Virus record (IMG/VR): IMGVR_UViG_3300017963_000288
Location: 1-63,067 of that record
Length of the DNA: 63,067 bases
Direction: 5' to 3' (one strand)
DNA from: a virus
Lineage: Duplodnaviria; Caudoviricetes
Below the pieces are notes generated by a model. That model had not been told where the DNA came from and made no database searches. It was given only the letters and a program-made list of their open reading frames with translations. The position numbers and the translations under genes were made by a program. The first letter of the stretch is position 1. Each line of letters opens with the position of its first letter. Positions 5,309 to 25,786 of the stretch are shown piece by piece.

Positions 5309-5311
5309 TTG

Positions 5312-6012: not shown

Positions 6013-6027
6013 AACCACCCGGCTATT

Positions 6028-6655: not shown

Positions 6656-6691
6656 ATCGTTTTTCTCCTGATTGTTTGTTGTTTGTGGTCG

Positions 6692-6892: not shown

Positions 6893-6898
6893 TCCCCC

Positions 6899-7297
6899 CT
6901 ATTTGTAGGCGACGAGTTGGAGTCGTCCATCGTCAAGCCGTTTCTCGCGGAAGCGAAACCCCTTGCGACTCAGCTTCTTCTTCGCGAGTGCCTTGACGTA
7001 GTTCTCGTTCAAGTGCTGCAACTGTGGGCCCAGCACCTTGTCGATTACGCGACCATAGCTGTCGTAGGCGAGCGTGTAGCCGTTCGTCTCTTTGTTATGG
7101 CTGTCCTTTGCCTGAACGACGCCGATTTCGTAGTTCGTTCCGGGTACTCTGATGACGTGCTCGCATGGCGATTTTCGACCGGACCAATACCGATGCTCTT
7201 TCAATCCGCGAACGAACTCACAGCCAAGCCCCCGAACGACCGACTCCAGCACGTTAAGGTCATTGACCTCCAGTTTGATTGATACTACATGACTCAC
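6899..7297 (-). CDS. DUF1257-like (Ycf35-like) protein
   Basis: GTG start after an AAAGGAG RBS; SHVVSIKLEVNDLNVL...YEIGV...YD; module context. Confidence 0.7.
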   Translation of the reverse strand: MSHVVSIKLEVNDLNVLESVVRGLGCEFVRGLKEHRYWSGRKSPCEHVIRVPGTNYEIGVVQAKDSHNKETNGYTLAYDSYGRVIDKVLGPQLQHLNENYVKALAKKKLSRKGFRFREKRLDDGRLQLVAYK

Positions 7298-7361
7298 GAT
7301 AGGCTCCTTTGTTCTAGTTTCAGTGTTAATTATACCATACCTTGCCCCGTTTGTGCCCGAT

Positions 7362-8261
7362 CTACTCATCATCCTCGAAACTGACGATCCTGCCGGGGCC
7401 ATCGGCCAAAAGCGTGTGCAATTGCTTGACGGCACCGTCCAGCGTTTCTTTGACCGAATCCCTGACGCCTCGGTTCGTTCGCAGGTCGTCCAGACTCTTG
7501 CCGTCCAGGGCCGAACGGATCGTATTGACGACGCTACCGAGGTCCTTGTCGTCCAGAATGTCGCGCTTATCAAATAAGGCTAACCACTCAAGGACTTTCC
7601 GCAATGTTCCCGGTTGCAGCGTTTGTCGGTGTCCGTTATCTTTCACGCCAAGAGCGTGCGCCAATTTCTCCGCGAGTCCGGCGATCCCTTCGCGAAGTGC
7701 AATCTTCGCCTCGTCGGCAAGGGCCGTCAACTCGACCTGTACTCTGTCGCGCTCTTTGGCGTAGAGGTATTCGCCGATCTGTGATGCGCCAGGCGTGGCC
7801 CATTGCGTGACTCGTTTCTCCACCCAGAACGCCCGCCGCAAGGCGCTCACGCTCGGGTAATCCGCCTCGTTGAACTGGTTCGCGAGTGCCGCCCTCGCAA
7901 TTTCCTTCTGGGCGGGATACACAACGAGAAACGCCTCGACGGCCTCTTGGTATTTTTCCTCATCCACCAATACGCGGTCGTATGCCTGTTCGAGCAAACT
8001 GATCGGAATCAAGTGCCGCCCCGTCTTGAATGGCCCATGCAATTCAAGGTCGCGCAGATATGAGCGACATGCGGAGGCGATCTTGCAGATGTACTTGTAC
8101 TCGGGCGACTCGACGATACGCTTGTTCAACCCGAGTTGCGACTTGTCCGCAGAAGTCTCGATTTCTGCCATGTCGCCGCGTCGATGGATTCCCGGCCGAT
8201 GGAAAACGACCTCCAGAATCACGGTGCCTTGTTCGAGTGCGTTGACTGTTGCGCTAGTCAT
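7362..8261 (-). CDS. DUF3150-like protein
   Basis: Helical ~300 aa protein with FNEADYPSVSALRRAF motif, directly after the AAA gene. Confidence 0.65.
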   Translation of the reverse strand: MTSATVNALEQGTVILEVVFHRPGIHRRGDMAEIETSADKSQLGLNKRIVESPEYKYICKIASACRSYLRDLELHGPFKTGRHLIPISLLEQAYDRVLVDEEKYQEAVEAFLVVYPAQKEIARAALANQFNEADYPSVSALRRAFWVEKRVTQWATPGASQIGEYLYAKERDRVQVELTALADEAKIALREGIAGLAEKLAHALGVKDNGHRQTLQPGTLRKVLEWLALFDKRDILDDKDLGSVVNTIRSALDGKSLDDLRTNRGVRDSVKETLDGAVKQLHTLLADGPGRIVSFEDDE

Positions 8262-8302
8262 GATCTAACTCCTTGCAATTGGAAATGTGACGGATTCTCA
8301 GT

Positions 8303-8352
8303 CGATCCGCTCTAGGTAGCCGTGCTCACCCACGGCTACCCTGGCCGGATCG
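8303..8352. other. long intergenic stem-loop
   Basis: CGATCCG(8303-8309)/CGGATCG(8346-8352) and GGTAGCCGTG(8315-8324)/CACGGCTACC(8331-8340). Confidence 0.7.
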
Positions 8353-8356
8353 GCAA

Positions 8357-9895
8357 TCACTCCGGATCGGCAACGCGACGCCCTCGCCCCCGTTTCGGTT
8401 TCTCGTAGACGCCGGGTTTGCTTGCCGATAGGTATTTGCCAGCCGCTTCTTCACGCAGAGCGTTTATGGCTGTCGCCTCAATACGCCCCTGTGGAATCAC
8501 AAGCGGCGCGACCTCATCTAACGGCTTGTCGAACCGCCACGCCTTATCCACGCACCGCTGAATATTCCGCCCGACCCAACCATCGTCCATGCCATTCCTG
8601 ACGGTCCCTTTGACATCCTCGTATTTCTTGAGCCAGACGTCCCATATTGCGGATCGCTCTTTTGCGTCCGGCAGATCGAAAAAGAATGTGTCGGTGAACC
8701 GTGAACGCAACGCCGTATCCAGTCCACGGATACTGTTGCTCGTTGCGATCCATAGAGCGTTATCACTCCCAACGGCACTCACCACTTTCAACGCCGTGCG
8801 AAGATACCCGCCAGACCGTCCGACCAACTCGTGTTTCATCGCACCCATGTTGATCCGTATGACGAGCCGCCCGAACTCTGCGCCGACAGCTTTCGCAAAC
8901 GCCGACTTCCCACTCCCGGCGACGCCCAACAACATCAGACCATAAACGCCGTGGTCCTCCATGTAAGTTAGTGTCTCACCGAGTTGTTCGGCGTTGACTC
9001 CGCTTGTGTCACCCGTGTGACCAAGACCGGACTTTTCGATTTCATCCAACCACACAACAACCTCTGGTGGCTTGCGTCCGGTCATCAGTTGTCTTGCGTA
9101 CTCCTTTACGCTGTCGAGGCCACCCAGACTCTCGAACGTCTCGCCACCACGATAGACGGACAAGCCGCGAGTCTGTTCGATCAACGCCGTTTTCGTTTGC
9201 CACAAGTGAGCGATGTCAATGCCGTCCTTGCGGAGTGCCATCGCCGTGGCCTGTTCGGCCGAAAACGCCGGGAGCCCTCGAACCGCCTCAACGCTACGCA
9301 ACAGCGTATCCCTATCCATGATCGTGCGTTTAGACGTCCCCGTGCCCTTGCATTTTTCGCACTCCAGCCCCAGCGCAAGGCCAGTCCCGCCACACCCTCC
9401 ACACAGACTCGCGGACTGATCGAGTTTTGCGACGATTTCCGTCAGGTGTTCTGTGTCTGGTAACGGCTCGTCGAGAACAACGATGTCGTCCTTGAGCAGC
9501 GCAGGCAGATCAATCGTAGATTGAACGATGATAAGCATCCGGCGATCCAATTTCAGTTGATCGCGCAGATTCCAGACGGCCTGTTGTACGTGTGGGTTCC
9601 GCTCGAAAAACTCGCACCCGTTCAACATACATGCGATTCCACGCTCCGGCAATTCTCGCGAGCACCACATCAGAAATTCCACCGGCTCGGTGCAATCGTG
9701 CAAATCATCCGTGATGATTTCCTCGCCGCCCTCGTTGACGCCCACGACGCCGCGTACACAATCCCACATGACGATGGGGCCATTCTTCAATCCCTTCGCC
9801 AATTGTATCACGCATGCGCCGGGGTCCGGCGTTGTGATGGCGACAATTGGAACGGCCGCTTGGCGAGCAAGACTCAACTCTTTGACGAAATTCAT
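8357..9895 (-). CDS. Ycf46-like AAA+ ATPase with rearranged core and CxxCxGxG zinc-finger insert
   Basis: LGGLDSVK, WLDEIEK (Walker B), GVAGSGKS (Walker A), IATSN (sensor 1), RFTDTFFFDLP. Confidence 0.9.
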   Translation of the reverse strand: MNFVKELSLARQAAVPIVAITTPDPGACVIQLAKGLKNGPIVMWDCVRGVVGVNEGGEEIITDDLHDCTEPVEFLMWCSRELPERGIACMLNGCEFFERNPHVQQAVWNLRDQLKLDRRMLIIVQSTIDLPALLKDDIVVLDEPLPDTEHLTEIVAKLDQSASLCGGCGGTGLALGLECEKCKGTGTSKRTIMDRDTLLRSVEAVRGLPAFSAEQATAMALRKDGIDIAHLWQTKTALIEQTRGLSVYRGGETFESLGGLDSVKEYARQLMTGRKPPEVVVWLDEIEKSGLGHTGDTSGVNAEQLGETLTYMEDHGVYGLMLLGVAGSGKSAFAKAVGAEFGRLVIRINMGAMKHELVGRSGGYLRTALKVVSAVGSDNALWIATSNSIRGLDTALRSRFTDTFFFDLPDAKERSAIWDVWLKKYEDVKGTVRNGMDDGWVGRNIQRCVDKAWRFDKPLDEVAPLVIPQGRIEATAINALREEAAGKYLSASKPGVYEKPKRGRGRRVADPE

Positions 9896-9940
9896 TTCTC
9901 ATCTTCCTTTCGTATCTCGGTTAGGTTGGTTGGGGTTGCG

Positions 9941-10189
9941 TTAATCGACTTCCCAACCATCGTTAACTAGTTCACTAAAACACTCGTACTTGATCGCTTC
10001 TGCCCCTTCCAGTTTGGCGTCGAAAATGTTGCACAATAGAACGTGGGGCTGCATTGCTAGAACGACGCCAATTTCTGCAATCACCCCAGATGGGTCGCGG
10101 CGTATCACGGGACATCGAGGCCAACTCGGCCAGACGTGCGGTGCCAATAGATACGCCAACGACTTCTTCCGGATCGTTGCCTTGTCCAT
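9941..10189 (-). CDS. hypothetical protein
   Basis: GGAG RBS; ends in GWEVD. Confidence 0.6.
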   Translation of the reverse strand: MDKATIRKKSLAYLLAPHVWPSWPRCPVIRRDPSGVIAEIGVVLAMQPHVLLCNIFDAKLEGAEAIKYECFSELVNDGWEVD

Positions 10190-10208
10190 GATTGACTCCC
10201 CTCTGCGT

Positions 10209-10550
10209 TTAGATTCGTCCTTTGGAATGTGGCAACACATAATGCACTCGCCGCGTGACACGCAGGGCAATTACGCCCCAGTCTGGTGGCACCCCATTCG
10301 TATTCACGCGGGCGACACCCACGAACCCATCGTCCCGCTCATAATAGACATCGCGATAGTGGCCGTGTTCCATAACGCCCACCACTACGCCGTGAAAGTG
10401 ATTGACGCGAAATTCTGGTTCGCGGTGGACTTCCATGATAACAATCTCGTCGTCGATCCCAACTTTGGGCTGGTAACTGTCCATCGGCAACAATCCCATT
10501 TCGCGACATTGGCGATTGATGACTTGCCGCCGCACCATTACGGGCAACAT
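10209..10550 (-). CDS. hypothetical protein
   Basis: GGGAG RBS, co-oriented. Confidence 0.55.
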   Translation of the reverse strand: MLPVMVRRQVINRQCREMGLLPMDSYQPKVGIDDEIVIMEVHREPEFRVNHFHGVVVGVMEHGHYRDVYYERDDGFVGVARVNTNGVPPDWGVIALRVTRRVHYVLPHSKGRI

Positions 10551-10568
10551 AGCAGACTCCCTTCTTGT

Positions 10569-10772
10569 TTAGACTTTGTTGATCTTTCCCATATGGGCGA
10601 TGACTCGCCCCCGTTCCGTTTTACTCAAGTCGCGGAGTGGGTAAAGCGCCTCCAGCGCATATCCGCGAACCTCGTCCGCCGTCAATCGCGGGGGCCGTTC
10701 CTTGACCCCACGCCTTCCGAGTTGCCGCTGAACGTCCGGCGGCAGGTCGGCTACCCTAACGCCTTTTGCCAT
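10569..10772 (-). CDS. hypothetical protein
   Basis: AAGGAG RBS. Confidence 0.6.
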   Translation of the reverse strand: MAKGVRVADLPPDVQRQLGRRGVKERPPRLTADEVRGYALEALYPLRDLSKTERGRVIAHMGKINKV

Positions 10773-10956
10773 AATTCACTCCTTCGCTTGTAAAGGTTTC
10801 TGGTTTGTCTATGTCGCGGAAGAACCGCGTCATCCCAACTCGGTCACTTTCGGCTTCGGCTCTACTCTTGTATGGGCCACAGTCAGGCTCGTTATCAGGT
10901 AGGCCGGTCACCCACCACGCACCGCCTCGCCAGATCGTTTCAAGGTCGACCGTCAT
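10756..10956 (-). CDS. hypothetical protein
   Basis: MTVDLE start; WW...CGPYKSRAEA pattern. Confidence 0.55.
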   Translation of the reverse strand: MTVDLETIWRGGAWWVTGLPDNEPDCGPYKSRAEAESDRVGMTRFFRDIDKPETFTSEGVNYGKRR

Positions 10957-11605
10957 CTTGTGTCCCCCCTGTTCCGCATTGTCCTCGTTGTAGGCCCGCA
11001 AGACCCCGACACGGCAACCGCTGCCGACACTGTTCGGCCAGTTCCACCACGAGCGGTTCGCTCGTCGTGGGCAGTTGCCAATCGTGGCTCCTTTCCCAGT
11101 CCACCTCCGGCCGGTTCTGCATCCAATAGAACACCCTGCCGCCACTGGTCTGCAATGTGAACGGTAAATGCCGCACCGGCAGCACCCAATTCGACAACGG
11201 CAAGTCTTTTTCCGGTCGTGAGGCCGCGTCAAGCGATAGATCGGCGAGGTAATAGGCGGTTTGAAGGATTAGGTGTCCGTTATATTTGGACCCGCTCCGC
11301 TCGTCGATCTGTACGATGTACGCCCCAGCGTCAGTCCACCTCGCGGCATCGGCTTCGCTCTTTGGCAGCTCCGCCTCGCGGTCGATCAATCGACACGCTG
11401 CGCCGTTGCAAGCGGCGTAAGCGCAGGGCACCGGCTCAGACCGGATGCCGAACAGGTCGAGAACGTGCATCGCTATCCTCGTCGACGCGATGCACGTCTC
11501 CCGAACCTTTGCACCCATCCCGACAAGCGTAGCCTCCCGCAAGTCGAAAGCCAAAGCCTCTAAGATGATCCGGTGCTTTTGTTTTTCACGCCGTAGGATA
11601 CTCAT
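10940..11605 (-). CDS. hypothetical protein (Cys...His...Asp arrangement suggests a transglutaminase-like fold; weak)
   Basis: GGAGG RBS; TCIASTR...GHLIL...ADLS. Confidence 0.5.
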   Translation of the reverse strand: MSILRREKQKHRIILEALAFDLREATLVGMGAKVRETCIASTRIAMHVLDLFGIRSEPVPCAYAACNGAACRLIDREAELPKSEADAARWTDAGAYIVQIDERSGSKYNGHLILQTAYYLADLSLDAASRPEKDLPLSNWVLPVRHLPFTLQTSGGRVFYWMQNRPEVDWERSHDWQLPTTSEPLVVELAEQCRQRLPCRGLAGLQRGQCGTGGTQDDGRP

Positions 11606-11657
11606 TGGGCCCTCCGTTAGTTCGGGGAATAGAATTCTCATGTGGGCTCTTGCTCGA

Positions 11658-11888
11658 TCAATACAACGACACTCGCCAGTATGCGCCGCAGCGTCGACAC
11701 CCGTGATCCAGATTTCCTGACTCCGGTCCACCGGAACTGCAATCCACGAGGTCGTGACCATGCAACGAGCACATCGCCGTGTTCCAAGCCGACTCCAAGG
11801 TGGCTTGGAACGTGGGAGAGTAGATGTCCCCGTGAAGGCGGAGCGGGTCGTCATCCCGCATTTCGGTGATTGTCAAGTTTGTGTGCAT
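11658..11888 (-). CDS. small Cys/His-rich protein
   Basis: AAGGAGATTAGCGATG leader; CSLHGHD...CRRCG. Confidence 0.6.
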   Translation of the reverse strand: MHTNLTITEMRDDDPLRLHGDIYSPTFQATLESAWNTAMCSLHGHDLVDCSSGGPESGNLDHGCRRCGAYWRVSLY

Positions 11889-11963
11889 CGCTAATCTCCT
11901 TGTGTGTTGTGGTTGGTTGTGGTTGCCCCACTCGCTAACCCTCGCTGTTTCTCGCGTCGCGGA

Positions 11964-12206
11964 TCACTTATGATCGACGACCTCCCGCGTCAAGACCTGG
12001 AGTACGAAGTGGTCTTGCCTCGCAACGAGAACAAGATCGTCAAGTACGCTCTCGATTGCATCGCGGTCATTCCGTCCTGTCACAACGCAGATGCGGTCAG
12101 TTATGGCCGCTATCGGGTTGTGGCTCGACCCTCCGATGTTTCGCCGCCGTTCATCGGCGACGATTTCATCAACGTTAGCCGTGTGGTTAAGGTTCGCGTC
12201 AACCAT
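11964..12206 (-). CDS. hypothetical protein, paralog of the 13181-13564 C-terminal domain
   Basis: AAGGAG RBS; shared GGSSHN motif. Confidence 0.65.
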   Translation of the reverse strand: MVDANLNHTANVDEIVADERRRNIGGSSHNPIAAITDRICVVTGRNDRDAIESVLDDLVLVARQDHFVLQVLTREVVDHK

Positions 12207-12254
12207 CGTTCACTCCTTGCTGGTTGGGGTTCGTTTGATTCATCGGCTCCGAGT

Positions 12255-12707
12255 CTATTTGTCATGCTTGTGCTTCCGACAGATTCGACGCTCGGTTCCT
12301 CGGATCACGGGGCCGTCAATCCCCGCCTCCTTGCAGACGCCGCAGATCATCCCGCTCGCGAACCATCCGCAGCACGCGCAATCGCGGTGCGTCTTGGGTT
12401 CTCGGCAGAGGCACTTGTCGTTCTTTTTCCGCGTCTTCGCTCGCTGCTTGTTTCGTTTGACTTCGGCAACCAGGGCGACCACCGCCTCTTTGCGCGTCAG
12501 AGTGCCGCCACGCCACACTTGACCATTGCGCAATCGCCACTCGTATGTCTCGCCACCGCCGCGCGAGGTCCGAACCGAACCGAGGGTGGCCGTTCGCCAC
12601 GCTCCGACCATCGGGGTCTTGCGTGTCCGAACCATGTAAGTGGTGGCCCCTTTCCAACTGTACCGATCCAGGTAGAGCGTCTTGCCATTTACTTTGATCG
12701 TCGCCAT
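12255..12707 (-). CDS. basic protein with C-terminal Cys cluster
   Basis: AAGGAGATTACGATG leader; CLC..CACCG..CGVC..C. Confidence 0.65.
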   Translation of the reverse strand: MATIKVNGKTLYLDRYSWKGATTYMVRTRKTPMVGAWRTATLGSVRTSRGGGETYEWRLRNGQVWRGGTLTRKEAVVALVAEVKRNKQRAKTRKKNDKCLCREPKTHRDCACCGWFASGMICGVCKEAGIDGPVIRGTERRICRKHKHDK

Positions 12708-12763
12708 CGTAATCTCCTTTTAGTTTTTTGGGGAACAAAAATAATACGAACGAACTCACTCAC

Positions 12764-13126
12764 TCAGAAGCCATAATGCTGCTCAGAGGGAAACGCCTCG
12801 GCAACAATCGCCTCACGCTCGGCAAAGGACAACCCCTCCACCCACTCCATTGCCTCGTCATCCTCCCCGTACATCGCAGGGAAGCCGGTAGCGAACCCGC
12901 AGCTCGTCACGCTATCGGCAACCTCATCCCCGCTCAACGTCACCCGCATCGTCGCCTCGACGCTCGGCTCCTTCGTGGGATACCCGGCTCGGGCCGCTGC
13001 GATTCCCTGCAAGGTATCGTATGCAATCGCGTCCCATGCCATGTGAAGGGCAGTTATCGCCCGCTCCCGCAAAGACCCAGAATGTCTCCGCCCTCTACAA
13101 CCTTTCGCCGCTCGTTTCAATTTCAT
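12764..13126 (-). CDS. hypothetical protein
   Basis: AAGGAG RBS. Confidence 0.6.
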   Translation of the reverse strand: MKLKRAAKGCRGRRHSGSLRERAITALHMAWDAIAYDTLQGIAAARAGYPTKEPSVEATMRVTLSGDEVADSVTSCGFATGFPAMYGEDDEAMEWVEGLSFAEREAIVAEAFPSEQHYGF

Positions 13127-13180
13127 CGCTCAACTCCTTATTGGTTATGGATGATCGTGATTGTCTCGCCAACCCACCCG

Positions 13181-13564
13181 CTAACCCTCGATTTCCGCCC
13201 GCAGCATCTTGTAGGAATCGTCGTCCTCCCGGCACGTCGCGACGAGACATTCGACCGCTTGTTCCAGGGCGATGAAGTCAGTTCGGCCGGAATAAAGGCC
13301 GATCCGATGGGACAATTCAGCCGGGACGTTATGGCTCGACCCACCGACGTAGTTGACCCCATCGGTGGCAACCGCGTCGCCAGCCCAGTCTTCCTCGACG
13401 GTATACGTCTCGTCTGGGTCTTCGTCGTCTTCCTTGAGTTCAATCAGATCACAAACCGCTTCGTCGATTGCTTTCAACATCGGCTTGTACCGTTTCAGCG
13501 TCTCGTCGCTCCAGTTTTGAACCTCGACAAGTTGTGCCAGAATTGAGTCAAAGAACTTTCGCAT
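13181..13564 (-). CDS. acidic hypothetical protein
   Basis: Its RBS lies in the repeat directly 3' of hammerhead 1. Confidence 0.7.
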   Translation of the reverse strand: MRKFFDSILAQLVEVQNWSDETLKRYKPMLKAIDEAVCDLIELKEDDEDPDETYTVEEDWAGDAVATDGVNYVGGSSHNVPAELSHRIGLYSGRTDFIALEQAVECLVATCREDDDSYKMLRAEIEG

Positions 13565-13567
13565 CGC

Positions 13568-13654
13568 TAATCTCCTTTGTGCTTGACTGTTTGGCTGCTC
13601 GTCAGACCTGGCCCGCCACGGCCGGATGATGGGGCGAAACTCGCCCCATTTCGC
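13568..13654. repeat. 87-bp direct repeat, copy 1 (ribozyme + RBS)
   Basis: 81/87 identical to 15120-15206 by manual alignment. Confidence 0.95.
13592..13654 (-). ncRNA. type II hammerhead ribozyme, copy 1
   Basis: GC-GAAA-UGGGGCGA(GUU)UCGCCCCA-UC^AUCCGGCC(GUGGCG)GGCCAGGU-CUGACGA-GC-AGCCA; complete catalytic core; predicted cleavage between 13628 and 13627. Confidence 0.85.
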
Positions 13655-13657
13655 TCT

Positions 13658-14305
13658 CTACCAAAACATGCCGAACCGCTCGACAATTCGGCTGACCCTC
13701 AAGCCCTCATCGTACTCTGCCGCGAGGATGACCTTCGCGATGTTCCGTACCGCTGCCCGTGAGCGGCGAGGGGAAGCGTAGTTGCGGCCGAGAATGATGT
13801 CAATTTCCTCGGCATATTCGCCACGACCGCAATGCTCGTCCTTCGTATAGACCGTGAACAATGGGCCATCGTTGAGTAAGTTTGTGCCCTGCGGCTTGCC
13901 CTGCCCGTCGAAAAACAGGATCGCCAAACAATACCCTCGCGGCGTATCGTGAACCTCAAGCCGTCGCGAACCCCCTCGCCGAAATGTCTTCGGTGCACCG
14001 TAGTCTGCCACTTTGCGGGACTTCCGGTTTGTATGTCGCTTCTGCCGCTTCTTCTGCCGTCTCGCTACGGCAACCTTTCCAACCGTAACGCCTTCCTCGT
14101 GCAGCGTCAGAACGAATCCCCTCGCCCGATACACCGTCCGTTCGGTATCATCCTTCGCTAAACCGAGGGTCCGCAGGATGTCCACGCGGGCTTGACGGGT
14201 GTGGCCATGGTCGTCAAAAGGATATGACAACCACCATGTTCTCGCCGCCGCGTTGTACCGCGTGACTCGGCATCCCAGTTTTCTCAGTCTCGTGATGACA
14301 TTCAC
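13658..14305 (-). CDS. hypothetical basic protein
   Basis: GTG start after an AAGGAG RBS; stop 3 nt before hammerhead 1. Confidence 0.6.
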   Translation of the reverse strand: MNVITRLRKLGCRVTRYNAAARTWWLSYPFDDHGHTRQARVDILRTLGLAKDDTERTVYRARGFVLTLHEEGVTVGKVAVARRQKKRQKRHTNRKSRKVADYGAPKTFRRGGSRRLEVHDTPRGYCLAILFFDGQGKPQGTNLLNDGPLFTVYTKDEHCGRGEYAEEIDIILGRNYASPRRSRAAVRNIAKVILAAEYDEGLRVSRIVERFGMFW

Positions 14306-14334
14306 AGTGAACTCCTTGTAAAGAAATGGATGTT

Positions 14335-14374
14335 GAAGAAATCGCCCAACCCGCCAGCGTTCGGTGGGCTGGGC
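14335..14374 (-). terminator. possible terminator/processing hairpin
   Basis: GCCCAGCCC...GGGTTGGGC stem followed by GATTTCTTC on the minus strand. Confidence 0.45.
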
Positions 14375-14421
14375 ACGGCCGCCGTCGTCGAGGGCATTTC
14401 GCATTAAGCGAGAAGAGGTCA

Positions 14422-15117
14422 TTACCACTCGGTGTCGATCCGCTCACAAACCGCCTTCCATTGCGCCAGGATCGCCAGCGGGCCGTTGTAGTCCGCGTAT
14501 GACAACAACCCGGCGAGCGCCCGAACCTCGCACTCTGTTCGGAAGTTACTCATCACTGACGAACTTCCATGACGGTACGGCCGTTCCTGCAAGGCGGCCG
14601 TCATACGCTGTCGGCAAACCTCGCTCGCCGCTGCCGCTTCCGCCAATGAGCATTCTTCCTGCAAGACTGCCCGCACGGTTTGCAACACGTTGTAGTAAGT
14701 GTAGGCGCGTCGCCGTCCGGCGTTGAGTAAGATGTCGTCCATATGCCACACCAGATAGTCCACGATGCCTTCCGACGGAATCTGCGGCTCTTGCTCTTTG
14801 TCGAAACGCTCCAACCACTTCGCCAATCGCTTCCGGGTGAATTCGCCGTGGTCCTCCATGTCCTCGGTCCGCTTTTGTTCCCGTTGACCCGCCCCCATCG
14901 CAGGCCGCACTTCGCAAGCGGCGACTTTGTAACGCGCTGACCCATCATCGGTCACTCTGACCTCAAGACCGTTTGCGTAGATGTGGTCGATACGCAAGAC
15001 GGCTTGCGCCCGCAGTCCGGGGTTGGCATTGATCTCGTCTGGGGACACGTCCACCAGCATTCCGACCTCCAGCTCCGTTCCCTTCCAACCGTTGATCTTC
15101 TGAATCGTGGTCGCCAT
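14422..15117 (-). CDS. hypothetical protein
   Basis: Its RBS lies in the repeat directly 3' of hammerhead 2. Confidence 0.7.
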   Translation of the reverse strand: MATTIQKINGWKGTELEVGMLVDVSPDEINANPGLRAQAVLRIDHIYANGLEVRVTDDGSARYKVAACEVRPAMGAGQREQKRTEDMEDHGEFTRKRLAKWLERFDKEQEPQIPSEGIVDYLVWHMDDILLNAGRRRAYTYYNVLQTVRAVLQEECSLAEAAAASEVCRQRMTAALQERPYRHGSSSVMSNFRTECEVRALAGLLSYADYNGPLAILAQWKAVCERIDTEW

Positions 15118-15119
15118 CG

Positions 15120-15206
15120 TAATCTCCTTTGTGCTTGACTATTTGGCTGCTCGTCAGACCCGGCCCGCCACGGCCGGATGACGGGGCGAAGCTTGCCCCG
15201 TTTCGC
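15120..15206. repeat. 87-bp direct repeat, copy 2
   Basis: Matches 13568-13654 at an offset of 1552 bp. Confidence 0.95.
15144..15206 (-). ncRNA. type II hammerhead ribozyme, copy 2
   Basis: GC-GAAA-CGGGGC(AAGCUUC)GCCCCG-UC^AUCCGGCC(GUGGCG)GGCCGGGU-CUGACGA-GC-AGCCA; GUC triplet; predicted cleavage between 15180 and 15179. Confidence 0.9.
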
Positions 15207-15212
15207 ACCATA

Positions 15213-15524
15213 TTAGAGTCGGCAACTGCTGATGGCTTCAATCCGTTCCTTTTGTTTCTTCGCTTCCTTCGCGTCTCGAATCGACTTCCTTTCGCTCTCG
15301 ACCAACTCATATAGAATCTCGGACAGGTCGTCGAACCACTCGCTGTCCGTCTCGGCGATTCGCTTCTCGGTTTCCTCTGCCTCCATATAGGCCGAGAAAG
15401 CCATTTCCTCGAACGTCTCGGCCAATTCCGCCATCACGTCAAGTGCTCCGTCCGGCGTGTGCGTGTAATGGGCACCACGGGCGAGAAGACGAGCGAAGCC
15501 TTTTGCGGTGTAGGTTCTAGCCAT
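15213..15524 (-). CDS. hypothetical protein, first gene of the early operon
   Basis: GAAAGGAG RBS before MARTY. Confidence 0.7.
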   Translation of the reverse strand: MARTYTAKGFARLLARGAHYTHTPDGALDVMAELAETFEEMAFSAYMEAEETEKRIAETDSEWFDDLSEILYELVESERKSIRDAKEAKKQKERIEAISSCRL

Positions 15525-15576
15525 GATCGTAGCTCCTTTCAAAATGGTTAAGAAAAATCTGCGTAATCATCCGCAA

Positions 15577-15653
15577 GGTGGGTTATTGGGAATCGAACCC
15601 AACTCGAACGTCGCGGCGTCTCCGCCACGTGTCTTGCACCAGCACCCAACCGA
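15577..15653 (-). ncRNA. tRNA-like structure lacking an anticodon loop
   Basis: T-arm UUGGG-UUCGAUU-CCCAA; acceptor UCGGUUG/UAACCCA (one mismatch); central arm CGUGGCG-GAGA-CGCCGCG; 77 nt. Confidence 0.55.
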
Positions 15654-15655
15654 AG

Positions 15656-15995
15656 AACTCCCATTCCGCCAATCCGGCCTTTCGCTTTCCCGAACGAGAG
15701 TCACTTCGATTCTTGTCGCGTCCCTGAGTCTTATGTCCGGCTCTGTGCCGACGCCTTTCCCCGACTCGCACCGTTATCGACGCTTACCATTACCTTCAAC
15801 GTCCGGTGGAGGGGGGCCAGCTTCGCAACGCACAACTCGGCGTGGGTCGATTTCTCTCCCCCTACCGCTCGTCGATTCGAGTTCGTTCGGACGTCTCGGC
15901 TTGTGGCCGGTTTCTCGACCTCGCTCACTTGGAGGTCATTGGTCGGACGTCCTACTTCGTGCTGTGCTTCGCTCATAAGAAGAATCGAAATGTAG
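15656..15995 (-). ncRNA. putative large structured non-coding/leader RNA
   Basis: 13-bp long-range helix 15992-15980/15714-15702 enclosing nested stems; separate 11-bp helix 15702-15692/15666-15656. Confidence 0.55.
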
Positions 15996-16019
15996 AATGT
16001 GTTATTCCTCATATATTAT

Positions 16020-16048
16020 AGATTAGAAAATCGCCGTAATTCCGTCAA
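16020..16048 (-). promoter_or_regulatory. sigma70-type promoter of the early leftward operon
   Basis: TTGACG-17nt-TAATCT, with an overlapping TATAAT just downstream; overlapped by inverted repeat AAATCGCCG(16028-16036)/CGGCGATTT(16057-16065). Confidence 0.6.
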
Positions 16049-16137
16049 GGGGAATCCGGCGATTTAGTGCGATTATCTGAAATTTTAAGTCATTATAAGC
16101 AAAGAACTTATGGCGACGAGCGGAAAATAATTGGAGA

Positions 16138-16620
16138 CTATGCCGGATTTTCCGGGGGTGACACCATGGCTATGGCGATTTTCCGTCCCAATTCAGGACG
16201 CCCCTGGCACAAGGCGAGCATGGCGACCTTCTTCTTCGTCTCTGGTGGCACCCCGCTGAAATCGCTTGACACGCCATCGACAAAAATCCGCGCCTTTATA
16301 CAACACCCGTCGCCGATCCCCAACAAGAGTTGCAGGGATGGGCAAACTTCCGCGAAGACACAAGTCGCTTCCCCATTTTTGTCGTAATCCAAGAGCGGGC
16401 ATGGCAGATCATAAGGCGAAACGCCAAGTTCTATCGCAATCGGGCAAACGACCGTGATACAACAGAATCCGCAACGTGTGCAATTGTTCGGAAAGGTCAC
16501 GCGACCCGCAGTACCCCCCGCCGAAAGTTTCCATTCCACAGGGGTTGATTGCATCGTTCGTCCAACTGCTGAATCGCCAGTTCCCGTTTCCGTCACCCTG
16601 CCGTTCGTTCCGTTTCCCAT
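16138..16620 (-). CDS. YkgJ-like CxxCxxCC cysteine-cluster protein
   Basis: CTRCGFCC...CP...CPLL...C; AAGGA RBS. Confidence 0.65.
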   Translation of the reverse strand: MGNGTNGRVTETGTGDSAVGRTMQSTPVEWKLSAGGTAGRVTFPNNCTRCGFCCITVVCPIAIELGVSPYDLPCPLLDYDKNGEATCVFAEVCPSLQLLLGIGDGCCIKARIFVDGVSSDFSGVPPETKKKVAMLALCQGRPELGRKIAIAMVSPPENPA

Positions 16621-17151
16621 GATAGATTTCCTTTCGTTGTTTCGCGTTCAGTTCTGTTATAACCTGGCGTTTTGCCGCTCATATCACGCCCCCATCTTTC
16701 CTGTGACTAACAATCCCTAACCCCCGGCCCTTATAATTACGTTGGCGGCCAATTCCTACGGCGACAACCAACGTCGTCGAGGACCTTCCGTGATGGAACA
16801 CAGACTCCTTTTCCAGCGTGTCGGGATCACTCCGACGCTGTGGCGTTTGGGCTGTACGTGTGCCTTGGCCGCTTCCGGTGCCACCACGCCGTTTGCCAAT
16901 CTGGGCTATATTCGCCGAACCTAGTGTCAAGAACGGCTGAATTTCCGAAATTCTTTTGCGATGGGCTTGTATCACGTATGATGCGAGTTATAATTCAAAA
17001 GACGCTCATGGTTCCTCGTGAGGTCGGGGGCGGTTCGGTGCCTACAAGTTTCTGACCGCCCCACTATTATATCGTCACCGAATCACCAAGGAAGGTCATC
17101 ACCTCTACGCGAATTTCTCATTTCCGAAATTCAACGCCTTGGAACCATGAC

Positions 17152-18036
17152 ATGAAAGCAATCATTACCGGCGGCGCAGGATTCATCGGCCACCATTTAG
17201 TGACCTCTTTACTCGCCAGGGGCGATCAAGTCCTGGTTATTGATGACCTATCAACCGGGAGAGCCGATCCGACGATATACGGCCGCCTACTCGTTCACGA
17301 CATTACGATGCCGATCCGCCATGACCTCGAACAGTTCGCCGATGCGAGCGTTATGTTCCATCTTGCCGCCAAAGCGCGTGTACAGCCCAGCATAGCCGAT
17401 CCGATCTACTTCAATCAGACCAATGTCGTCGGCACCCTGCGAATGCTATGGTTGGCAAAAGAACTCGGCATTCGCCGTTTCGTATTCGCATCGAGTTCAT
17501 CCGTCTACGGCAATTGCAATACAATGCCATTGTCTGCCGAACAGACCAAACCTAACCCAATCTCCCCATACGGTCTACAAAAACTTATCGGCGAACAATA
17601 CTGCCGGTTATTCTCATCGCTATACGGCGTCGATACCGTCTGTTTGCGATTTTTCAACGTGTATGGCGATGGGATGTCTCACGGTCAATATGCGATGGTC
17701 ATCCAAAAGTTTCTTGACCAGCGCGAATTGGGAGAATTGTTGACGATCTATGGTGACGGAAGTCATCGGCGAGATTTCACTCATGTTAGTGACATCGTAC
17801 GCGCGGTCATCCTTGCCGGGGATCGCAAACGACCGTTCGAGGGCAAACCACTCAACGTCGGTCGCGGATCGAATGTCTCGGTTGCCGAGTTTGCCGCAAT
17901 GGTTGGCGGTCCAACTAGGTATCTTCCGGCAGTGCCCGAACCAGCCGAGACGCTTGCAGGGATCGCGACAACGAAGACGGAATTGAGTTGGGAGCCGGTG
18001 GTTGATCTTCAAACGTGGCTTGAGTCCACGGGATGA
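17152..18036 (+). CDS. NAD-dependent UDP-glucose 4-epimerase-like SDR
   Basis: ITGGAGFIG, FHLAA, SSSSVYG, PYGLQK, LRFFNVYG, RDFTHVSD. Confidence 0.92.
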   Translation: MKAIITGGAGFIGHHLVTSLLARGDQVLVIDDLSTGRADPTIYGRLLVHDITMPIRHDLEQFADASVMFHLAAKARVQPSIADPIYFNQTNVVGTLRMLWLAKELGIRRFVFASSSSVYGNCNTMPLSAEQTKPNPISPYGLQKLIGEQYCRLFSSLYGVDTVCLRFFNVYGDGMSHGQYAMVIQKFLDQRELGELLTIYGDGSHRRDFTHVSDIVRAVILAGDRKRPFEGKPLNVGRGSNVSVAEFAAMVGGPTRYLPAVPEPAETLAGIATTKTELSWEPVVDLQTWLESTG

Positions 18037-23918: not shown

Positions 23919-25786
23919 CTCTGCGACAATATCAGCGCGACGCAATGATGGCGGTCATTGCAGACATTCAGTCAAAGGAACGTACACTTGTCTCCATGCC
24001 AACCGGCGTAGGCAAGACGGTGTTGGGTGCGGCACTTGCCGACTGGTGGGGCGAGAACGCCCATCGTTTCGGCATGTCGGCTCGCGTCCTTTGGTTGGCA
24101 CACAGGGACGAGCTGGTCTGGCAAGCGGCGAGAGCGCTTGAACTCGCGACCGGCGAGGAAGTTGCGGTGGAGAAATCCGATTCGCGAGCGAGAGCGACAG
24201 CGGCAATGTTCGACCGGCGCATCGTGGTTGGGAGCGTCCAGACATTGTTTCAAGAGGACCGTCGTGATAGCTTTGGACACGACGAGTTCGGCCTGATTGT
24301 AGCGGACGAGGCTCATCACTACGTTGCTCCCGCTTTTCGCGACGTAATTGACTATTTTCACGCAGCCAAGACGGTTGGATTGACGGCGACAACGGATCGA
24401 CACGACCAGATTAGTCTGGGTCAGTTGTTCGAGGGATGCGCGTACCACTATGACGTGATGCAGGCAATCGAGGACGGCTGGCTCTGCCGATTGCGCCAGG
24501 AGTACGTTGAGGTGGAGGGCCTTGATTGGTCTTCGGCCCGCAAGAGCAGCACGGGCGACTTGTCGGCAACGGACATAGACCGGATCATAAACGAAGAAAC
24601 GGTGCTCCACAAGATCGTGGTGCCTTGCGTTCGCTTGGCTGGTGATCGTCCGACTCTCGTCTTTACCCCGAGCGTCGCGACCGCGAAGGCGATAGCCGCG
24701 ATCATCCCACGCTACACAAAGGCGGGAGCGGCTGCGATCTGCGGGGACACCCCGGAGGATGAACGCCGCCGATTGGTCGATCAATACAAAGAGGGGCATT
24801 TCCAGTTTCTTGTCAACTGTATGGTCTTGACCGAGGGGTTCGATGCCCCAGCGACGGCCTGTATCGTGATGGCAAGGCCAACGAACTCTCGGACGCTCTA
24901 TGCACAGGCAATCGGCCGAGGTTTGCGCGGTGGGCACCGCTGCCCGATTCCTGGCAAGAAGGATTGTCTGATAGTCGATCTTGTCGGAGCATCGCTCAAG
25001 CACCAACTCTGCACGTCCTCTGACATACTGACGGGCAACTTTCACGAGGTCGTGCAAGAGGCCGCAAGGGGCATGCTCCGCGAGCCGCGCGAAGATGACG
25101 AGGAATCCCCTGATGTTGTCAATGCGGTCTTGGCAGCGATTGCCAACGAGGAACAGCTACGCCGGGAGCGACGCAAGAAACTGATTGCAGAGGCGAAACT
25201 CAAGCGGACAGCAGTAGACCCGTTCGGCGTCCTCGCGATGCCGGAAGTCGATCTGCCGGAGCCGGGTTTCTGGGGCGATGAATTTGTAACAGAGAAGGCA
25301 AAGGCCACGCTCGAACAAGCAGGAGTGAATACCAAGGGATTGACGCGGCTTGAGGGTGAGCGATTGGTTCGGGAGTTACGAAGGCGGGCCGAGTGTGGTA
25401 TATGCACATTCAAACAGGCGAGGCACTTGCGAGCGTGGGGTTTCGATCCGTCTATGAGTTTGATTCAAGCGAACGTGATTATCAGTAAACAATTTGCTCG
25501 GCGGAGTCGAGCGTACATTCAACCGGAGGACGCAAAGCGAAAGCACTACGCGAAGAAGCGGGGGCAAATGGTCACATACGAGGAATTGGCTTGGACGCCT
25601 ATGTGGTCGCTTGGCGAGGGCATCGAGTGTGTCGTCTGTCGCGATGGGGGCGAGCCGGTCAATCACAGAACAACCAAGCGAACGCATTTCAAGCATGGGC
25701 GAGTGGATGGAAACCTCGTCACGCTAGTAGACGACCGTGGATGGACGATCCAAACAACGGTAGATAAAGTGGACAGACTAAAATGA
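23915..25786 (+). CDS. superfamily 2 DEAH helicase
   Basis: LRQYQ, PTGVGKT, DEAHH, GLTAT, LTEGFDAP, QAIGRGLR. Confidence 0.95.
   Translation: MTLRQYQRDAMMAVIADIQSKERTLVSMPTGVGKTVLGAALADWWGENAHRFGMSARVLWLAHRDELVWQAARALELATGEEVAVEKSDSRARATAAMFDRRIVVGSVQTLFQEDRRDSFGHDEFGLIVADEAHHYVAPAFRDVIDYFHAAKTVGLTATTDRHDQISLGQLFEGCAYHYDVMQAIEDGWLCRLRQEYVEVEGLDWSSARKSSTGDLSATDIDRIINEETVLHKIVVPCVRLAGDRPTLVFTPSVATAKAIAAIIPRYTKAGAAAICGDTPEDERRRLVDQYKEGHFQFLVNCMVLTEGFDAPATACIVMARPTNSRTLYAQAIGRGLRGGHRCPIPGKKDCLIVDLVGASLKHQLCTSSDILTGNFHEVVQEAARGMLREPREDDEESPDVVNAVLAAIANEEQLRRERRKKLIAEAKLKRTAVDPFGVLAMPEVDLPEPGFWGDEFVTEKAKATLEQAGVNTKGLTRLEGERLVRELRRRAECGICTFKQARHLRAWGFDPSMSLIQANVIISKQFARRSRAYIQPEDAKRKHYAKKRGQMVTYEELAWTPMWSLGEGIECVVCRDGGEPVNHRTTKRTHFKHGRVDGNLVTLVDDRGWTIQTTVDKVDRLK

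What the first reader, a model, noticed from the sequence alone, without database searches (positions are those of the whole stretch)
15656..16012. Large multi-domain structured RNA at the 5' end of the ribozyme-containing operon
Seen: ~490 nt between a sigma70-like promoter and the first convincing gene, with nested helices on the minus strand. CAUUUCGAUUCUU (15992-15980) pairs with AAGAAUCGAAGUG (15714-15702), followed by CUUAUG/CAUAAG. A three-way junction is formed by GGACGUC/GACGUCC enclosing GACCUC/GAGGUC and CGGC-CACAA-GCCG. Further stems are CGGU-AGGGGG/CCCCCU-CC-ACCG and a second similar hairpin CGGC-ACAGA-GCCG. An 11-bp helix GACUCUCGUUC/GAAUGGGAGUU follows, with purine-rich linkers (GAGAAA twice, GGAAAG twice). 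I do not recognise it as a known family. Inference: a novel phage ncRNA or an antitermination/processing leader that, with the tRNA mimic and the hammerheads, forms an RNA-based control system for early genes.
Basis: partly seen in the sequence, partly recalled or inferred. Interest (0 to 1): 0.8.

Follow-up and report, generated by a model that had tools for sequence, protein, structure and literature searches.

The report
Orphan structured RNA candidate in phage
A roughly 360-base stretch at the head of a phage gene cluster folds unusually well as RNA and ends at a tRNA-like element, but it has no relatives anywhere searched, so whether it is a working RNA remains unproven.

Summary
The window is a 63-kb uncultivated tailed-phage contig. 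In a thermodynamic model, 6 of the 8 proposed helices have pairing probability of 0.64 or more; two have about 0.

The minus strand folds better than shuffles. The 238-nt core has z -3.2, against +0.3 for its reverse complement. Its fold is better defined than all 35 coding controls and ranks 5th of 628 windows genome-wide. This signal is real but not unique: the energy residual ranks 52 of 1256, and the AU-rich closing helix is unremarkable by energy.

No Rfam family matches even at E<=10. A 76-nt tRNA-like element follows directly. Two type II hammerheads punctuate the operon downstream.

No homolog was found by DNA, protein or covariance-model searches, so covariation could not be tested. 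Related strains in the same metagenomes share the downstream genes but not this module. No RNA data were available.

The overlapping 93-aa ORF has no homologs, no ribosome-binding site and a very poor predicted fold. Its codon statistics are borderline.

Verdict: plausible new structured leader or ncRNA (about 0.45). Rivals are an orphan gene or a chance-folding spacer.

The parts
16028..16065 (-). Terminator-like hairpin (15 pairs with one bulge) followed by a U-rich tail. Its loop carries the -35-like TTGACG (16048-16043), and the -10-like TAATCT/TATAAT (16025-16015) follows it.
   Evidence: RNAfold of 16140-16005; inverted repeat I4; read by eye. The promoter scanner did not call it.
15652..16012 (-). 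Candidate structured RNA as a whole. The 5' end is set by the predicted transcription start near 16012-16009 and the 3' end by the start of the tRNA-like element.
   Evidence: MFE -133.7 kcal/mol, z -2.76, 1 of 100 shuffles. No Rfam match at E<=10.
15974..16010 (-). 5' strand of an interrupted terminal rod: P1 16010-16004, P1b 15999-15994, P2 15992-15980, P3 15980-15974.
   Evidence: P 0.997 (P1), 0.98 (P1b), 0.94 (P2), 0.64 (P3).
15652..15735 (-). 3' strand of the rod: P3 15735-15729, a 15-nt bulge, P2 15714-15702, two small hairpins at 15700-15668, P1b 15667-15662, P1 15658-15652.
15825..15972 (-). Domain A. The stem 15972-15961/15836-15825 encloses a three-way junction (GGACGUC/GACGUCC 15952-15946/15895-15889, with hairpins 15937-15917 and 15909-15897) and two further hairpins (15881-15868, 15867-15838). 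AGUA (15956-53) and GAA (15888-86) flank the junction helix.
   Evidence: Reading AGUA/GAA as a loop-E-like motif is recalled, not tested.
15737..15821 (-). Domain B (a stack of five short helices, 15821-15753, ending in a 13-nt loop) and hairpin C (UCGGC-ACAGA-GCCGG, 15751-15737).
   Evidence: hairpin C P 0.88.
15577..15651 (-). tRNA-like element: a 7-bp acceptor-like stem with one bulged U, a 2-bp D-like hairpin, a 10-bp arm with a 5-nt loop, and a T arm with GGUUCGAUUCC. It is not a callable tRNA.
   Evidence: Folds alone at -31 kcal/mol, z -2.11, 5 of 200 shuffles. ARAGORN found 0 tRNAs. Rfam gave mascRNA 16.5 bits (cut-off 42.5) and tRNA-Sec 14.4 bits (cut-off 47). The T-loop motif occurs once in the window.
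15550..15576 (-). Weak hairpin (5 pairs) followed by AUUUUUCUUA, a possible leaky terminator.
15213..15524 (-). First gene with a strong ribosome-binding site (103 aa, acidic, orphan).
   Evidence: The only database match is itself plus one variant with a single amino-acid change. No Pfam or PHROG match.
15141..15208 (-). Type II hammerhead ribozyme directly upstream of the conserved ribosome-binding-site cassette of the 231-aa gene.
   Evidence: Rfam RF02276, 67.2 bits against a cut-off of 37; alignment A1.
13589..13656 (-). Second type II hammerhead, upstream of the 127-aa gene.
   Evidence: Rfam RF02276, 56.2 bits; shows one compensatory C-G to U-A change relative to the first copy.
15731..16012 (-). 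93-aa ORF overlapping the 5' three quarters of the RNA (the rival reading).

Best explanation
The minus strand from about 16012 to 15652 is transcribed as a non-coding, multi-domain structured RNA of about 360 nt at the head of an accessory early-gene module.

An interrupted terminal rod pairs the first ~37 nt with the last ~85 nt. It encloses two compact domains, one built on a three-way junction.

Immediately 3' lies a tRNA-like element (15651-15577). The inferred mechanism is that host RNase P cuts at the 5' edge of this element. That cut would give the structured RNA a defined 3' end base-paired to its own 5' end, a form protected from exonucleases. It would also separate the RNA from the downstream mRNA, whose later cistrons are separated by two hammerhead ribozymes.

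I rate a released, stable, trans-acting RNA (for example a decoy or scaffold used early in infection) somewhat more likely than a purely cis-acting leader.

Shown: the sequence features, the strand-specific and well-defined fold, and the absence of any known family.
Inferred: transcription, the start site, RNase P processing, stability and any function.
For: Structure:
- The 238-nt interior has z -3.20 (0 of 200 shuffles), and its MFE and centroid structures are almost identical.
- The reverse complement has z +0.32. This points to an RNA-level, G-U-dependent fold on the transcribed strand.
- Ensemble diversity (0.078 per nt) and positional entropy (0.30) are lower than in all 35 coding controls. 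The window ranks 5th of 628 on that strand.
- The helix-bounded 291 nt has z -4.22, beyond all 22 coding controls and beyond all 13 helix-bounded controls of 250 nt or more.

Boundaries:
- The outermost helix begins 2-3 nt from the start site predicted from TTGACG-17-TAATCT.
- Its 3' strand ends at 15652, one base before the tRNA-like element.

Non-coding character:
- The 93-aa ORF has no relative among 5.8 billion clusters.
- It has no Pfam or PHROG match.
- It has no Shine-Dalgarno sequence, whereas 5 of the 6 neighbouring operon genes have one.
- Its Atlas model has pLDDT 0.34 and pTM 0.13.
- Its 3-periodic Markov score is -0.016, against 0.096 +/- 0.057 for genes.
- The antisense 151-aa ORF scores -0.17 and has only 2 matches at E<=0.001, which I read as low-complexity and not homologs (one aligns in 13 separate stretches).

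Context:
- Terminator-like hairpins lie on both sides.
- Hammerheads punctuate the operon.
- Tandem hammerheads in prophage polycistronic RNAs are documented (PMC3088659, passages read).
- Large phage RNAs near tRNAs (GOLLD, ROOL) are a precedent (bioRxiv 10.1101/2024.12.08.627333, passages read).
Against: - There is no comparative support at all. Every copy seen is 100% identical (records 7, 15, 23 and 31), and no homolog was found.
- The fold signal is not unique in this genome. The energy residual ranks 52 of 1256, four other windows have lower entropy, and 4 of 21 helix-bounded controls have an equal or better z.
- The closing rod is ordinary by duplex energy; 31% of genomic segment pairs are as good.
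- The region was chosen by a reader who was looking for helices, which is a selection effect.
- GC content by codon position in the 93-aa ORF (0.57/0.47/0.64) resembles that of genes (0.59/0.46/0.60). Its reading frame is also the best of the three.
- The codon log-odds score of 0.084 lies within 1 sd of genes.
- A leaderless mRNA starting at that ATG is compatible with the predicted promoter.
- The promoter is weak and was not called by the scanner.
- The tRNA-like fold is not the MFE in a 171-nt context that lacks the 5' strand of P1.
- Related, more abundant strains lack the module, so it is dispensable.
Confidence: 0.45

Rival explanations
1. The 93-aa ORF (15731-16012, minus strand) is a real orphan early protein, possibly translated from a leaderless mRNA that starts at its ATG. 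The RNA structure is then incidental or only modulates its translation.
For: - The ORF is open for 93 codons and was called by gene finders on 4 contigs.
- Its GC1/2/3 profile is gene-like and its frame is the best of the three.
- Its codon log-odds score of 0.084 compares with 0.134 +/- 0.069 for training ORFs.
- The upstream 160-aa gene scores equally low (-0.01).
- The ATG lies where TTGACG-17-TAATCT would start transcription.
- Only 29 of 58 putative genes in the window have an SD-like motif.
- Neighbouring early genes are orphans too.
Against: - It has no homolog in 5.8 billion clusters.
- It matches no family.
- Its Atlas model has pLDDT 0.34 and pTM 0.13, and its best feature score is 0.77, which the tool says is within the range of shuffled proteins.
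- It has no SD, although 5 of 6 neighbouring genes in the operon have a strong one.
- The ORF ends at 15731, inside the rod. It therefore does not explain the remaining ~200 nt, the tRNA-like element, or the strand-specific low-entropy fold.
- A 93-codon open frame has a chance probability of roughly 0.03 per frame at this composition (my own estimate), which is not rare across 6 frames.
Confidence: 0.2
2. The stretch is a functionless spacer or recombination scar in a mosaic early region, for example a decayed gene or junction DNA. It happens to fall in the top few percent of fold scores and was noticed for that reason.
For: - The module is absent from related strains at 82-89% identity in the same samples. 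Those strains diverge exactly at the hammerhead (loose ends at 15158, 15194 and 15206).
- Contigs break at 16354-16383, where the variant protein P0002 also diverges.
- Fold statistics are in the top 1-4% but not unique.
- The closing helix is ordinary by energy.
- There is no homolog, no covariation and no expression evidence.
Against: - Phage genomes are compact. This gap, together with the adjacent 531-nt intergenic region, is the largest gap in the minus-strand block.
- The fold is strand-specific on the transcribed strand.
- The predicted 5' start, the rod and the tRNA-like element abut precisely.
- A canonical T-loop motif closed by an acceptor-like stem is unlikely in junk.
- The sequence is kept identical in samples from 5 studies.
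Confidence: 0.25
3. It is a DNA-level element, such as a replication origin, a packaging site, or an attachment site carrying a tRNA-gene fragment, rather than an RNA.
For: - An AT-rich stretch (16020-16135) lies next to GC-rich inverted repeats.
- tRNA-like 3' halves are typical of phage attachment sites (general knowledge).
- ParB-like genes lie nearby.
Against: - A 21-nt string spanning the T arm and acceptor has 0 exact matches in 185,579 species' genomes. A 24-nt string has 0 in viral contigs.
- No integrase appeared among the 40 ORFs put to family libraries.
- There are no iterons.
- The fold advantage exists on one strand only, which a double-stranded DNA cruciform would not show.
Confidence: 0.07

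Closest known systems
GOLLD and ROOL large ornate RNAs of phages and prophages
   Same: Both are phage-encoded, several hundred nucleotides long, multi-domain, of unknown function, and often sit next to tRNAs. tRNAs are sometimes embedded in the GOLLD linker (bioRxiv 10.1101/2024.12.08.627333, passages read).
   Different: There is no match to any Rfam model at E<=10. The candidate is smaller (about 290-360 nt). Its neighbour is a tRNA-like element, not a real tRNA. No family and no covariation exist, and oligomer formation is untested.
MALAT1 / MEN-beta with mascRNA (3'-end formation by RNase P at a tRNA-like element)
   Same: The architecture matches: a long structured RNA immediately followed by a tRNA-like element that could define its 3' end. 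The best, though sub-threshold, Rfam match of the element is mascRNA-menRNA.
   Different: The score is 16.5 bits against a cut-off of 42.5, so it is not a member. MALAT1 is a eukaryotic nuclear RNA with a triple-helix end. Cleavage here is only inferred. The comparison itself rests on recalled knowledge.
Tandem type II hammerhead arrangements in prophage polycistronic transcripts (Perreault et al. 2011, PMC3088659)
   Same: Two type II hammerheads lie between genes of one operon. That paper showed such arrays cleave about 2-kb polycistronic RNAs, and that one archaeal virus's transcript 5' end maps to a hammerhead site (passages read).
   Different: The paper describes no long structured leader or tRNA-like element ahead of the array. 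Here the strains that share the hammerheads lack the leader.
Promoter-proximal phage leader RNAs (lambda nut, HK022 put) and RNase III processing stems of rRNA precursors
   Same: The candidate sits at the start of an early operon, and long-range pairing of sequences flanks a structured core (recalled knowledge).
   Different: Those elements are short (tens of nucleotides) or flank rRNA. No sequence or model match was obtained, and nothing was tested here.
Candidate structured RNAs mined from IMG/VR (Fremin et al. 2023, PMC10690425)
   Same: Same data source and the same kinds of element (tRNA-like and upstream cis-regulatory candidates).
   Different: That catalogue required covariation and at least 3 distinct regions, and its motifs average 67 nt (passages read). 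A single-lineage 360-nt RNA would not qualify. Its supplementary tables could not be consulted.

Membership tests
Any Rfam 15 family (4227 models; from memory these include GOLLD, ROOL, RNase P RNA, tmRNA, 6S, group I/II introns and riboswitches) | Covariance-model match at or near the family's gathering score | tested here: not met
   0 matches at E<=10 on 15650-16020, both strands, with the laxest filters. There was also nothing in this stretch.
tRNA (for the 15577-15651 element) | Cloverleaf with a 7-nt anticodon loop, callable by ARAGORN or the Rfam tRNA models | tested here: not met
   ARAGORN called 0 genes. The best tRNA-clan match is tRNA-Sec at 14.4 bits against a cut-off of 47. The middle arm has 10 bp and a 5-nt loop.
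tRNA-like element (loose class) | T arm with the GGUUCGAUUCC loop motif, stacked on an acceptor-like stem formed by the two ends | tested here: met
   The motif occurs once in the window, at 15589-15599. An acceptor-like 7-bp stem and the T arm appear in the MFE of the element alone (z -2.11) and in the full-length fold. They are not kept in a 171-nt context.
mascRNA-menRNA | Rfam gathering score of 42.5 bits | tested here: not met
   16.5 bits, E 0.31.
Hammerhead type II (the neighbouring elements) | Rfam RF02276 gathering score of 37 bits | tested here: met
   67.2 and 56.2 bits, both full length 1-66 of 66.
Evolutionarily conserved structured RNA (generic criterion) | Compensatory base changes across homologs | not testable with these tools
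   No homolog was retrieved. All metagenomic copies are identical.
Thermodynamically exceptional RNA (generic criterion) | MFE well below dinucleotide shuffles and below same-genome controls, with a well-defined ensemble | tested here: met
   z -3.2 to -4.2. Entropy is lower than in all 35 controls and ranks 5 of 628. The qualification is that the energy residual ranks 52 of 1256 and 4 of 21 helix-bounded controls are as extreme.
Protein-coding gene (the 93-aa ORF) | Homologs, a ribosome-binding site, coding statistics and a foldable product | tested here: inconclusive
   Homologs: none. SD: none. Markov score -0.016 against 0.096 +/- 0.057 for genes, but the frame is the best of three and the GC1/2/3 profile is gene-like. 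pLDDT 0.34.
Sigma-70 promoter | Two hexamers with at least 9 of 12 matches at 16-18 nt spacing | tested here: not met
   0 sites in 13000-17500. TTGACG-17-TAATCT has 8 of 12 matches by eye. The host's promoter consensus is unknown.

The most novel reading that the evidence does not exclude
This is the founding example of a new class of large phage non-coding RNA whose 3' end is made by RNase P at a covalently attached tRNA mimic. That would be a bacterial-virus counterpart of MALAT1/mascRNA and a smaller cousin of GOLLD/ROOL. It would sit in an accessory early module of a phage, possibly of Planctomycetes, whose operon is cut into single-gene mRNAs by tRNA-like and hammerhead 'punctuation'. 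The released RNA, with its paired termini, would act in trans early in infection, for example as a decoy for a host nuclease or defence sensor.
Probability: 0.15. Interest if true: 0.75.

Novelty: new variant of a known kind. Interest (0 to 1): 0.4.

Why it matters
If real, this would add a large structured RNA with no known family to the short list of ornate phage RNAs (GOLLD, ROOL).

It would also be a bacterial-virus case of 3'-end formation at a tRNA mimic. And it would show a phage operon in which both tRNA-like and ribozyme elements cut the transcript into units.

It also marks a limit of comparative RNA discovery. The element occurs in one clonal lineage, so covariation-based pipelines cannot see it. 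The IMG/VR catalogue required at least 3 distinct regions (PMC10690425, passages read).

If it is an orphan gene or a spacer, the finding is ordinary.

Tried and rejected
Homolog searches that found nothing usable:
- blastn against GenBank phages.
- Neighbour proteins of 103, 231 and 160 aa in viral contigs.
- The 103-aa protein and P0002 in metagenome contigs.
- A search of 5.8 billion protein clusters with the 103-aa, 160-aa and 93-aa products returned only themselves or near-identical variants.
- A 1.84-billion-representative HMMER search with the antisense 151-aa ORF gave only 2 matches at E<=0.001; I read them as low-complexity and not homologs (one aligns in 13 separate stretches).
- Exact-pattern scans of the tRNA-like 3' half gave 0 in genome contigs and 0 in viral contigs.
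- A hammerhead-3' pattern brought 8 viral loci. Six of the eight carry type II hammerheads and none a tRNA. None has similarity to the region: blastn best E 0.15 over the 8 HH loci plus L002; covariance model R1 hit 0 of the 5 whole records searched and gave only noise (12 bits or less) on the fetched loci.

Host lead:
- The tape-measure protein's closest relative (47% identity) lies on a contig of a Planctomycetales MAG.
- That genome has no match to the region.
- 401 genomes of the phylum gave only short matches of up to 52 nt (about 20-50 nt). Of the 5 fetched loci checked, all with hits in the tRNA-like region, the matches were 16-27 nt and none lies in a tRNA gene.
- 151 genomes of the order, searched with R1, gave one 22.8-bit hit at per-genome E 0.034. 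That is about what chance gives over 151 genomes, and long ORFs overlap the site.

Other dead ends:
- No paralog of the region exists in the window.
- Sequencing runs: 7 DNA holders from 5 studies (sediment, seawater), and no RNA holder listed. Expression is therefore unknown.
- Contigs over the region show no variants.
- The Atlas look-alikes of the 93-aa ORF are at chance level.
- Relatives cannot be drawn for a virus record.

Ideas considered from memory and dropped for lack of the required neighbouring gene or model match: retron msr-msd, tmRNA, RNase P RNA, Y-RNA-like RNA, omega/bridge RNAs, and type III antitoxin repeats.
Full report
**What the window is.** The window is one IMG/VR virus record of 63,067 bp, rated 69% complete. 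It has a tape-measure protein, head-tail adaptor, helicase, RecT, an exonuclease, ParB-like proteins and sugar-modifying enzymes. The minus-strand gene block from about 260 to 16620 is tightly packed. The finding lies in a gap of that block, between a 160-aa gene (16138-16620) and a 103-aa gene (15213-15524). The tape-measure protein's nearest relative found in 185,579 species' genomes is 47% identical and sits on a contig of an uncultured Planctomycetales MAG. That is only a weak host hint.

**The observation.** I folded 16012-15560 and read pair probabilities for each claimed helix. Six of eight helices are favoured:
- the 13-bp closing helix (0.94)
- CUUAUG/CAUAAG (0.64)
- the three helices of the three-way junction (1.00, 0.94, 0.99)
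- the CGGC-ACAGA-GCCG hairpin (0.88)

Two are not favoured:
- The CGGU-AGGGGG/CCCCCU-CC-ACCG pairing has P about 0 and costs 15.7 kcal/mol to force.
- The 11-bp GACUCUCGUUC/GAAUGGGAGUU helix has P about 0.001 and costs 7.4 kcal/mol to force.

The model instead pairs the extreme 5' end with the same 3' segment (16010-16004/15658-15652 and 15999-15994/15667-15662, P 0.98-1.0). This gives an interrupted terminal rod of about 33 bp. Which alternative forms depends on where transcription starts, and that is unknown.

**Is it more than chance?**

Against dinucleotide shuffles the answer is yes:

| Segment | z | Shuffles as good |
|---|---|---|
| 461 nt | -3.19 | 0 of 100 |
| 361 nt | -2.76 | 1 of 100 |
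| 238-nt interior, closing helices excluded | -3.20 | 0 of 200 |
| Reverse complement of the interior | +0.32 | 122 of 200 |

So the signal is strand-specific.

Twenty-two sense-strand coding controls of 291 nt gave mean z -0.66, sd 0.89, minimum -2.13. The helix-bounded 291 nt gave -4.22.

Choosing boundaries at a long helix inflates z, so I also folded 21 other segments of this genome bounded by helices of 12 bp or more. They average -2.55 (sd 1.35), and 4 of the 21, all 203 nt or shorter, reach -4.22. None of the 13 that are 250 nt or longer does; their minimum is -3.78.

The fold is also unusually well defined. Ensemble diversity is 0.078 per nt and mean positional entropy 0.30. Both are lower than in all 35 coding controls, and far lower than the reverse complement's 0.35 and 1.39. 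In a grid scan of the whole minus strand the window ranks 5th of 628 by entropy. The grid was aligned to the window, which favours it.

Results that temper this:
- A composition-adjusted MFE residual for 15701-16000 ranks only 52 of 1256.
- Helices of 12 bp or more with loops of 30-400 nt occur 9 and 14 times on the two strands of the window.
- The closing rod is AU-rich and ordinary by duplex energy: -26.5 kcal/mol, against a genomic mean of -23.7 (sd 5.7). 986 of 3136 segment pairs are as good.

Taken together, the region is in the top 1-4% of this genome for structure, on the transcribed strand only, and it coincides with the largest gap in the operon. That is suggestive, not decisive.

**Known families.** Rfam 15 at gathering score finds only two type II hammerheads, at 15141-15208 and 13589-13656 on the minus strand. 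With E<=10 and the laxest filters there is no match of any of the 4227 families to 15650-16020.

The 76 nt that follow (15651-15577) fold into an acceptor-like stem, a tiny D-like hairpin, a 10-bp arm with a 5-nt loop, and a T arm with GGUUCGAUUCC. The element alone folds at -31 kcal/mol with z -2.11. ARAGORN calls no tRNA. The best Rfam matches are far below threshold: mascRNA-menRNA at 16.5 of 42.5 bits and tRNA-Sec at 14.4 of 47 bits. The T-loop motif occurs only here in the window. A 21-nt string across the T arm and acceptor has no exact match in genome contigs, so this is not a copied host tRNA end of the kind found at attachment sites.

**Coding or not.** The 93-aa ORF (15731-16012):
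- has no relative among 5.8 billion clusters; only its own sequence appears, on 4 contigs
- has no Pfam or PHROG match
- has no Shine-Dalgarno sequence, although 5 of the 6 neighbouring genes of the operon have a strong one. Window-wide only 29 of 58 putative starts have one.
- has an Atlas model with pLDDT 0.34 and pTM 0.13

Its 3-periodic Markov score is -0.016, against 0.096 +/- 0.057 for 56 genes (minimum -0.051). However, its own frame is the best of the three, and its GC1/2/3 profile (0.57/0.47/0.64) looks like that of genes (0.59/0.46/0.60). A simpler codon log-odds score is within 1 sd of genes.

The ATG lies where the putative promoter would start transcription, so a leaderless mRNA cannot be excluded. 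The antisense 151-aa ORF scores poorly and has only 2 matches at E<=0.001 among 1.84 billion representatives, which I read as low-complexity and not homologs (one aligns in 13 separate stretches). I keep 'orphan protein gene' as a rival at 0.2.

**Relatives and variation.** Nothing comparable was found:
- GenBank phages
- viral contigs through three neighbouring proteins
- metagenome contigs
- eight hammerhead-bearing viral records and one helicase relative
- the Planctomycetales MAG
- 401 genomes of that phylum by BLAST: only short matches of up to 52 nt. In the 5 fetched loci checked, the matches were 16-27 nt and none lay in a tRNA gene.
- 151 genomes of the order with a single-sequence covariance model: one 22.8-bit hit at chance level

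Seven DNA runs from five studies (sediment, seawater) hold the stretch, and no RNA run was listed.

I laid contigs of four runs on 13000-17500. The region 15164-16383 is covered only by 100%-identical contigs of low depth (5-8x). Contigs of higher depth (20-38x) at 82-89% identity cover 13178-13717, 13688-14027 and 14410-15000. They run on unlike at the hammerhead (loose ends at 15158, 15194 and 15206). On the other side, contigs break at 16354-16383. That is where a variant of the 160-aa protein (P0002) stops being identical, after residue 89.

So the segment from about 16353 to about 15206 is an accessory, mosaic module of one clonal lineage. It comprises the end of the 160-aa gene, the structured stretch, the tRNA-like element and the 103-aa gene. 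Related strains keep the hammerhead-punctuated genes without it. Covariation, the decisive test, is therefore impossible with present data.

**Anatomy and most likely mechanism.**

Upstream, a 15-pair hairpin (16065-16028) with a U-rich tail looks like the terminator of the 160-aa gene. Its loop holds TTGACG. Seventeen nucleotides later come TAATCT and the overlapping TATAAT. The scanner does not call this a promoter, and the host's consensus is unknown.

A start near 16012-16009 would place the 5' end at the foot of helix P1. The 3' strand of P1 ends at 15652, one base before the tRNA-like element.

I infer the following sequence of events:
1. The stretch is transcribed as a leader of about 360 nt.
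2. RNase P cleaves at the tRNA-like element, as it does 5' of tRNAs.
3. This releases an RNA whose two ends are paired.
4. The downstream cistrons are separated by the hammerheads. Each hammerhead sits directly before a conserved ribosome-binding cassette.

A weak hairpin plus a U run at 15576-15550 could also end some transcripts.

Precedents:
- Tandem hammerheads in prophage polycistronic RNAs are documented (PMC3088659, passages read).
- Large phage RNAs beside tRNAs, GOLLD and ROOL, are documented (bioRxiv 10.1101/2024.12.08.627333, passages read).
- The MALAT1/mascRNA analogy and the loop-E reading of AGUA/GAA flanking the junction helix are recalled, not tested.

Transcription, the start site, cleavage, stability and function are all inferred.

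**Novelty and verdict.** No known family fits. The kind of element is known: a phage structured leader or ncRNA beside a tRNA-like processing signal. The IMG/VR catalogue of candidate structured RNAs required at least 3 distinct regions plus covariation, and its motifs average 67 nt (PMC10690425, passages read). Its supplementary tables were not available, so I cannot exclude that a sub-motif is listed there.

My probabilities:
- about 0.45 that this is a selected RNA structure, with a released stable RNA somewhat more likely than a purely cis-acting leader
- 0.2 an orphan protein gene
- 0.25 a functionless mosaic spacer
- 0.07 a DNA-level site

Interest is moderate (0.4). The architecture is attractive, but the evidence comes from a single sequence and the fold signal is not unique in the genome.

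Noticed in passing
window 13000-15210, minus strand: The hammerheads and the 21-nt cassette that follows each (AGUCAAGCACAAAGGAGAUUA) coincide with strain-to-strain rearrangement points. Related contigs join 13091 to 14410 and 13585 to 15114, and diverge at 15158-15206. The ribozyme-plus-RBS cassette may therefore act as a module boundary for recombination.
   Followed up: partly
window 16938-16953 and 17120-17133: A perfect 13-nt palindromic repeat, ATTTCCGAAATTC (within TGAATTTCCGAAATTCA), occurs twice, 179 bp apart. It lies in the 531-nt divergent intergenic region between the minus-strand operon and the plus-strand epimerase gene. It looks like a pair of operator sites.
   Followed up: no
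window 16171-16183 and 16026-16038: A 13-bp complementarity links the end of the 160-aa ORF and the 3' strand of the terminator-like hairpin. It could compete with hairpin formation, giving a possible translation-coupled attenuator.
   Followed up: no
window 6101-6400 (-), 62301-62600 (-), 24536-24773 (-): These windows fold as well as or better than the finding. Energy residual z is -3.26 and -3.21 for the first two, and entropy ranks are 4, 2 and 1 of 628. The first two overlap ORFs of 151 and 153 aa with no family assignment checked or found.
   Followed up: no
window 16419-16672 (-): A 12-bp long-range helix bounds a 254-nt segment with z -3.78. The segment spans the start of the 160-aa gene and its upstream region.
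   Followed up: no
window 16353 (variant breakpoint): A 99-aa variant (P0002) of the 160-aa Cys-rich protein is identical for 89 residues and then diverges. It lies on a separate 6119-nt contig. Assembly contigs break at the same place.
   Followed up: partly
L019 (contig of a Planctomycetales MAG): This is the closest tape-measure relative (47% identity over residues 3-364), and the only hint of host. The other relatives are Bacillaceae prophages at 34-40%.
   Followed up: partly
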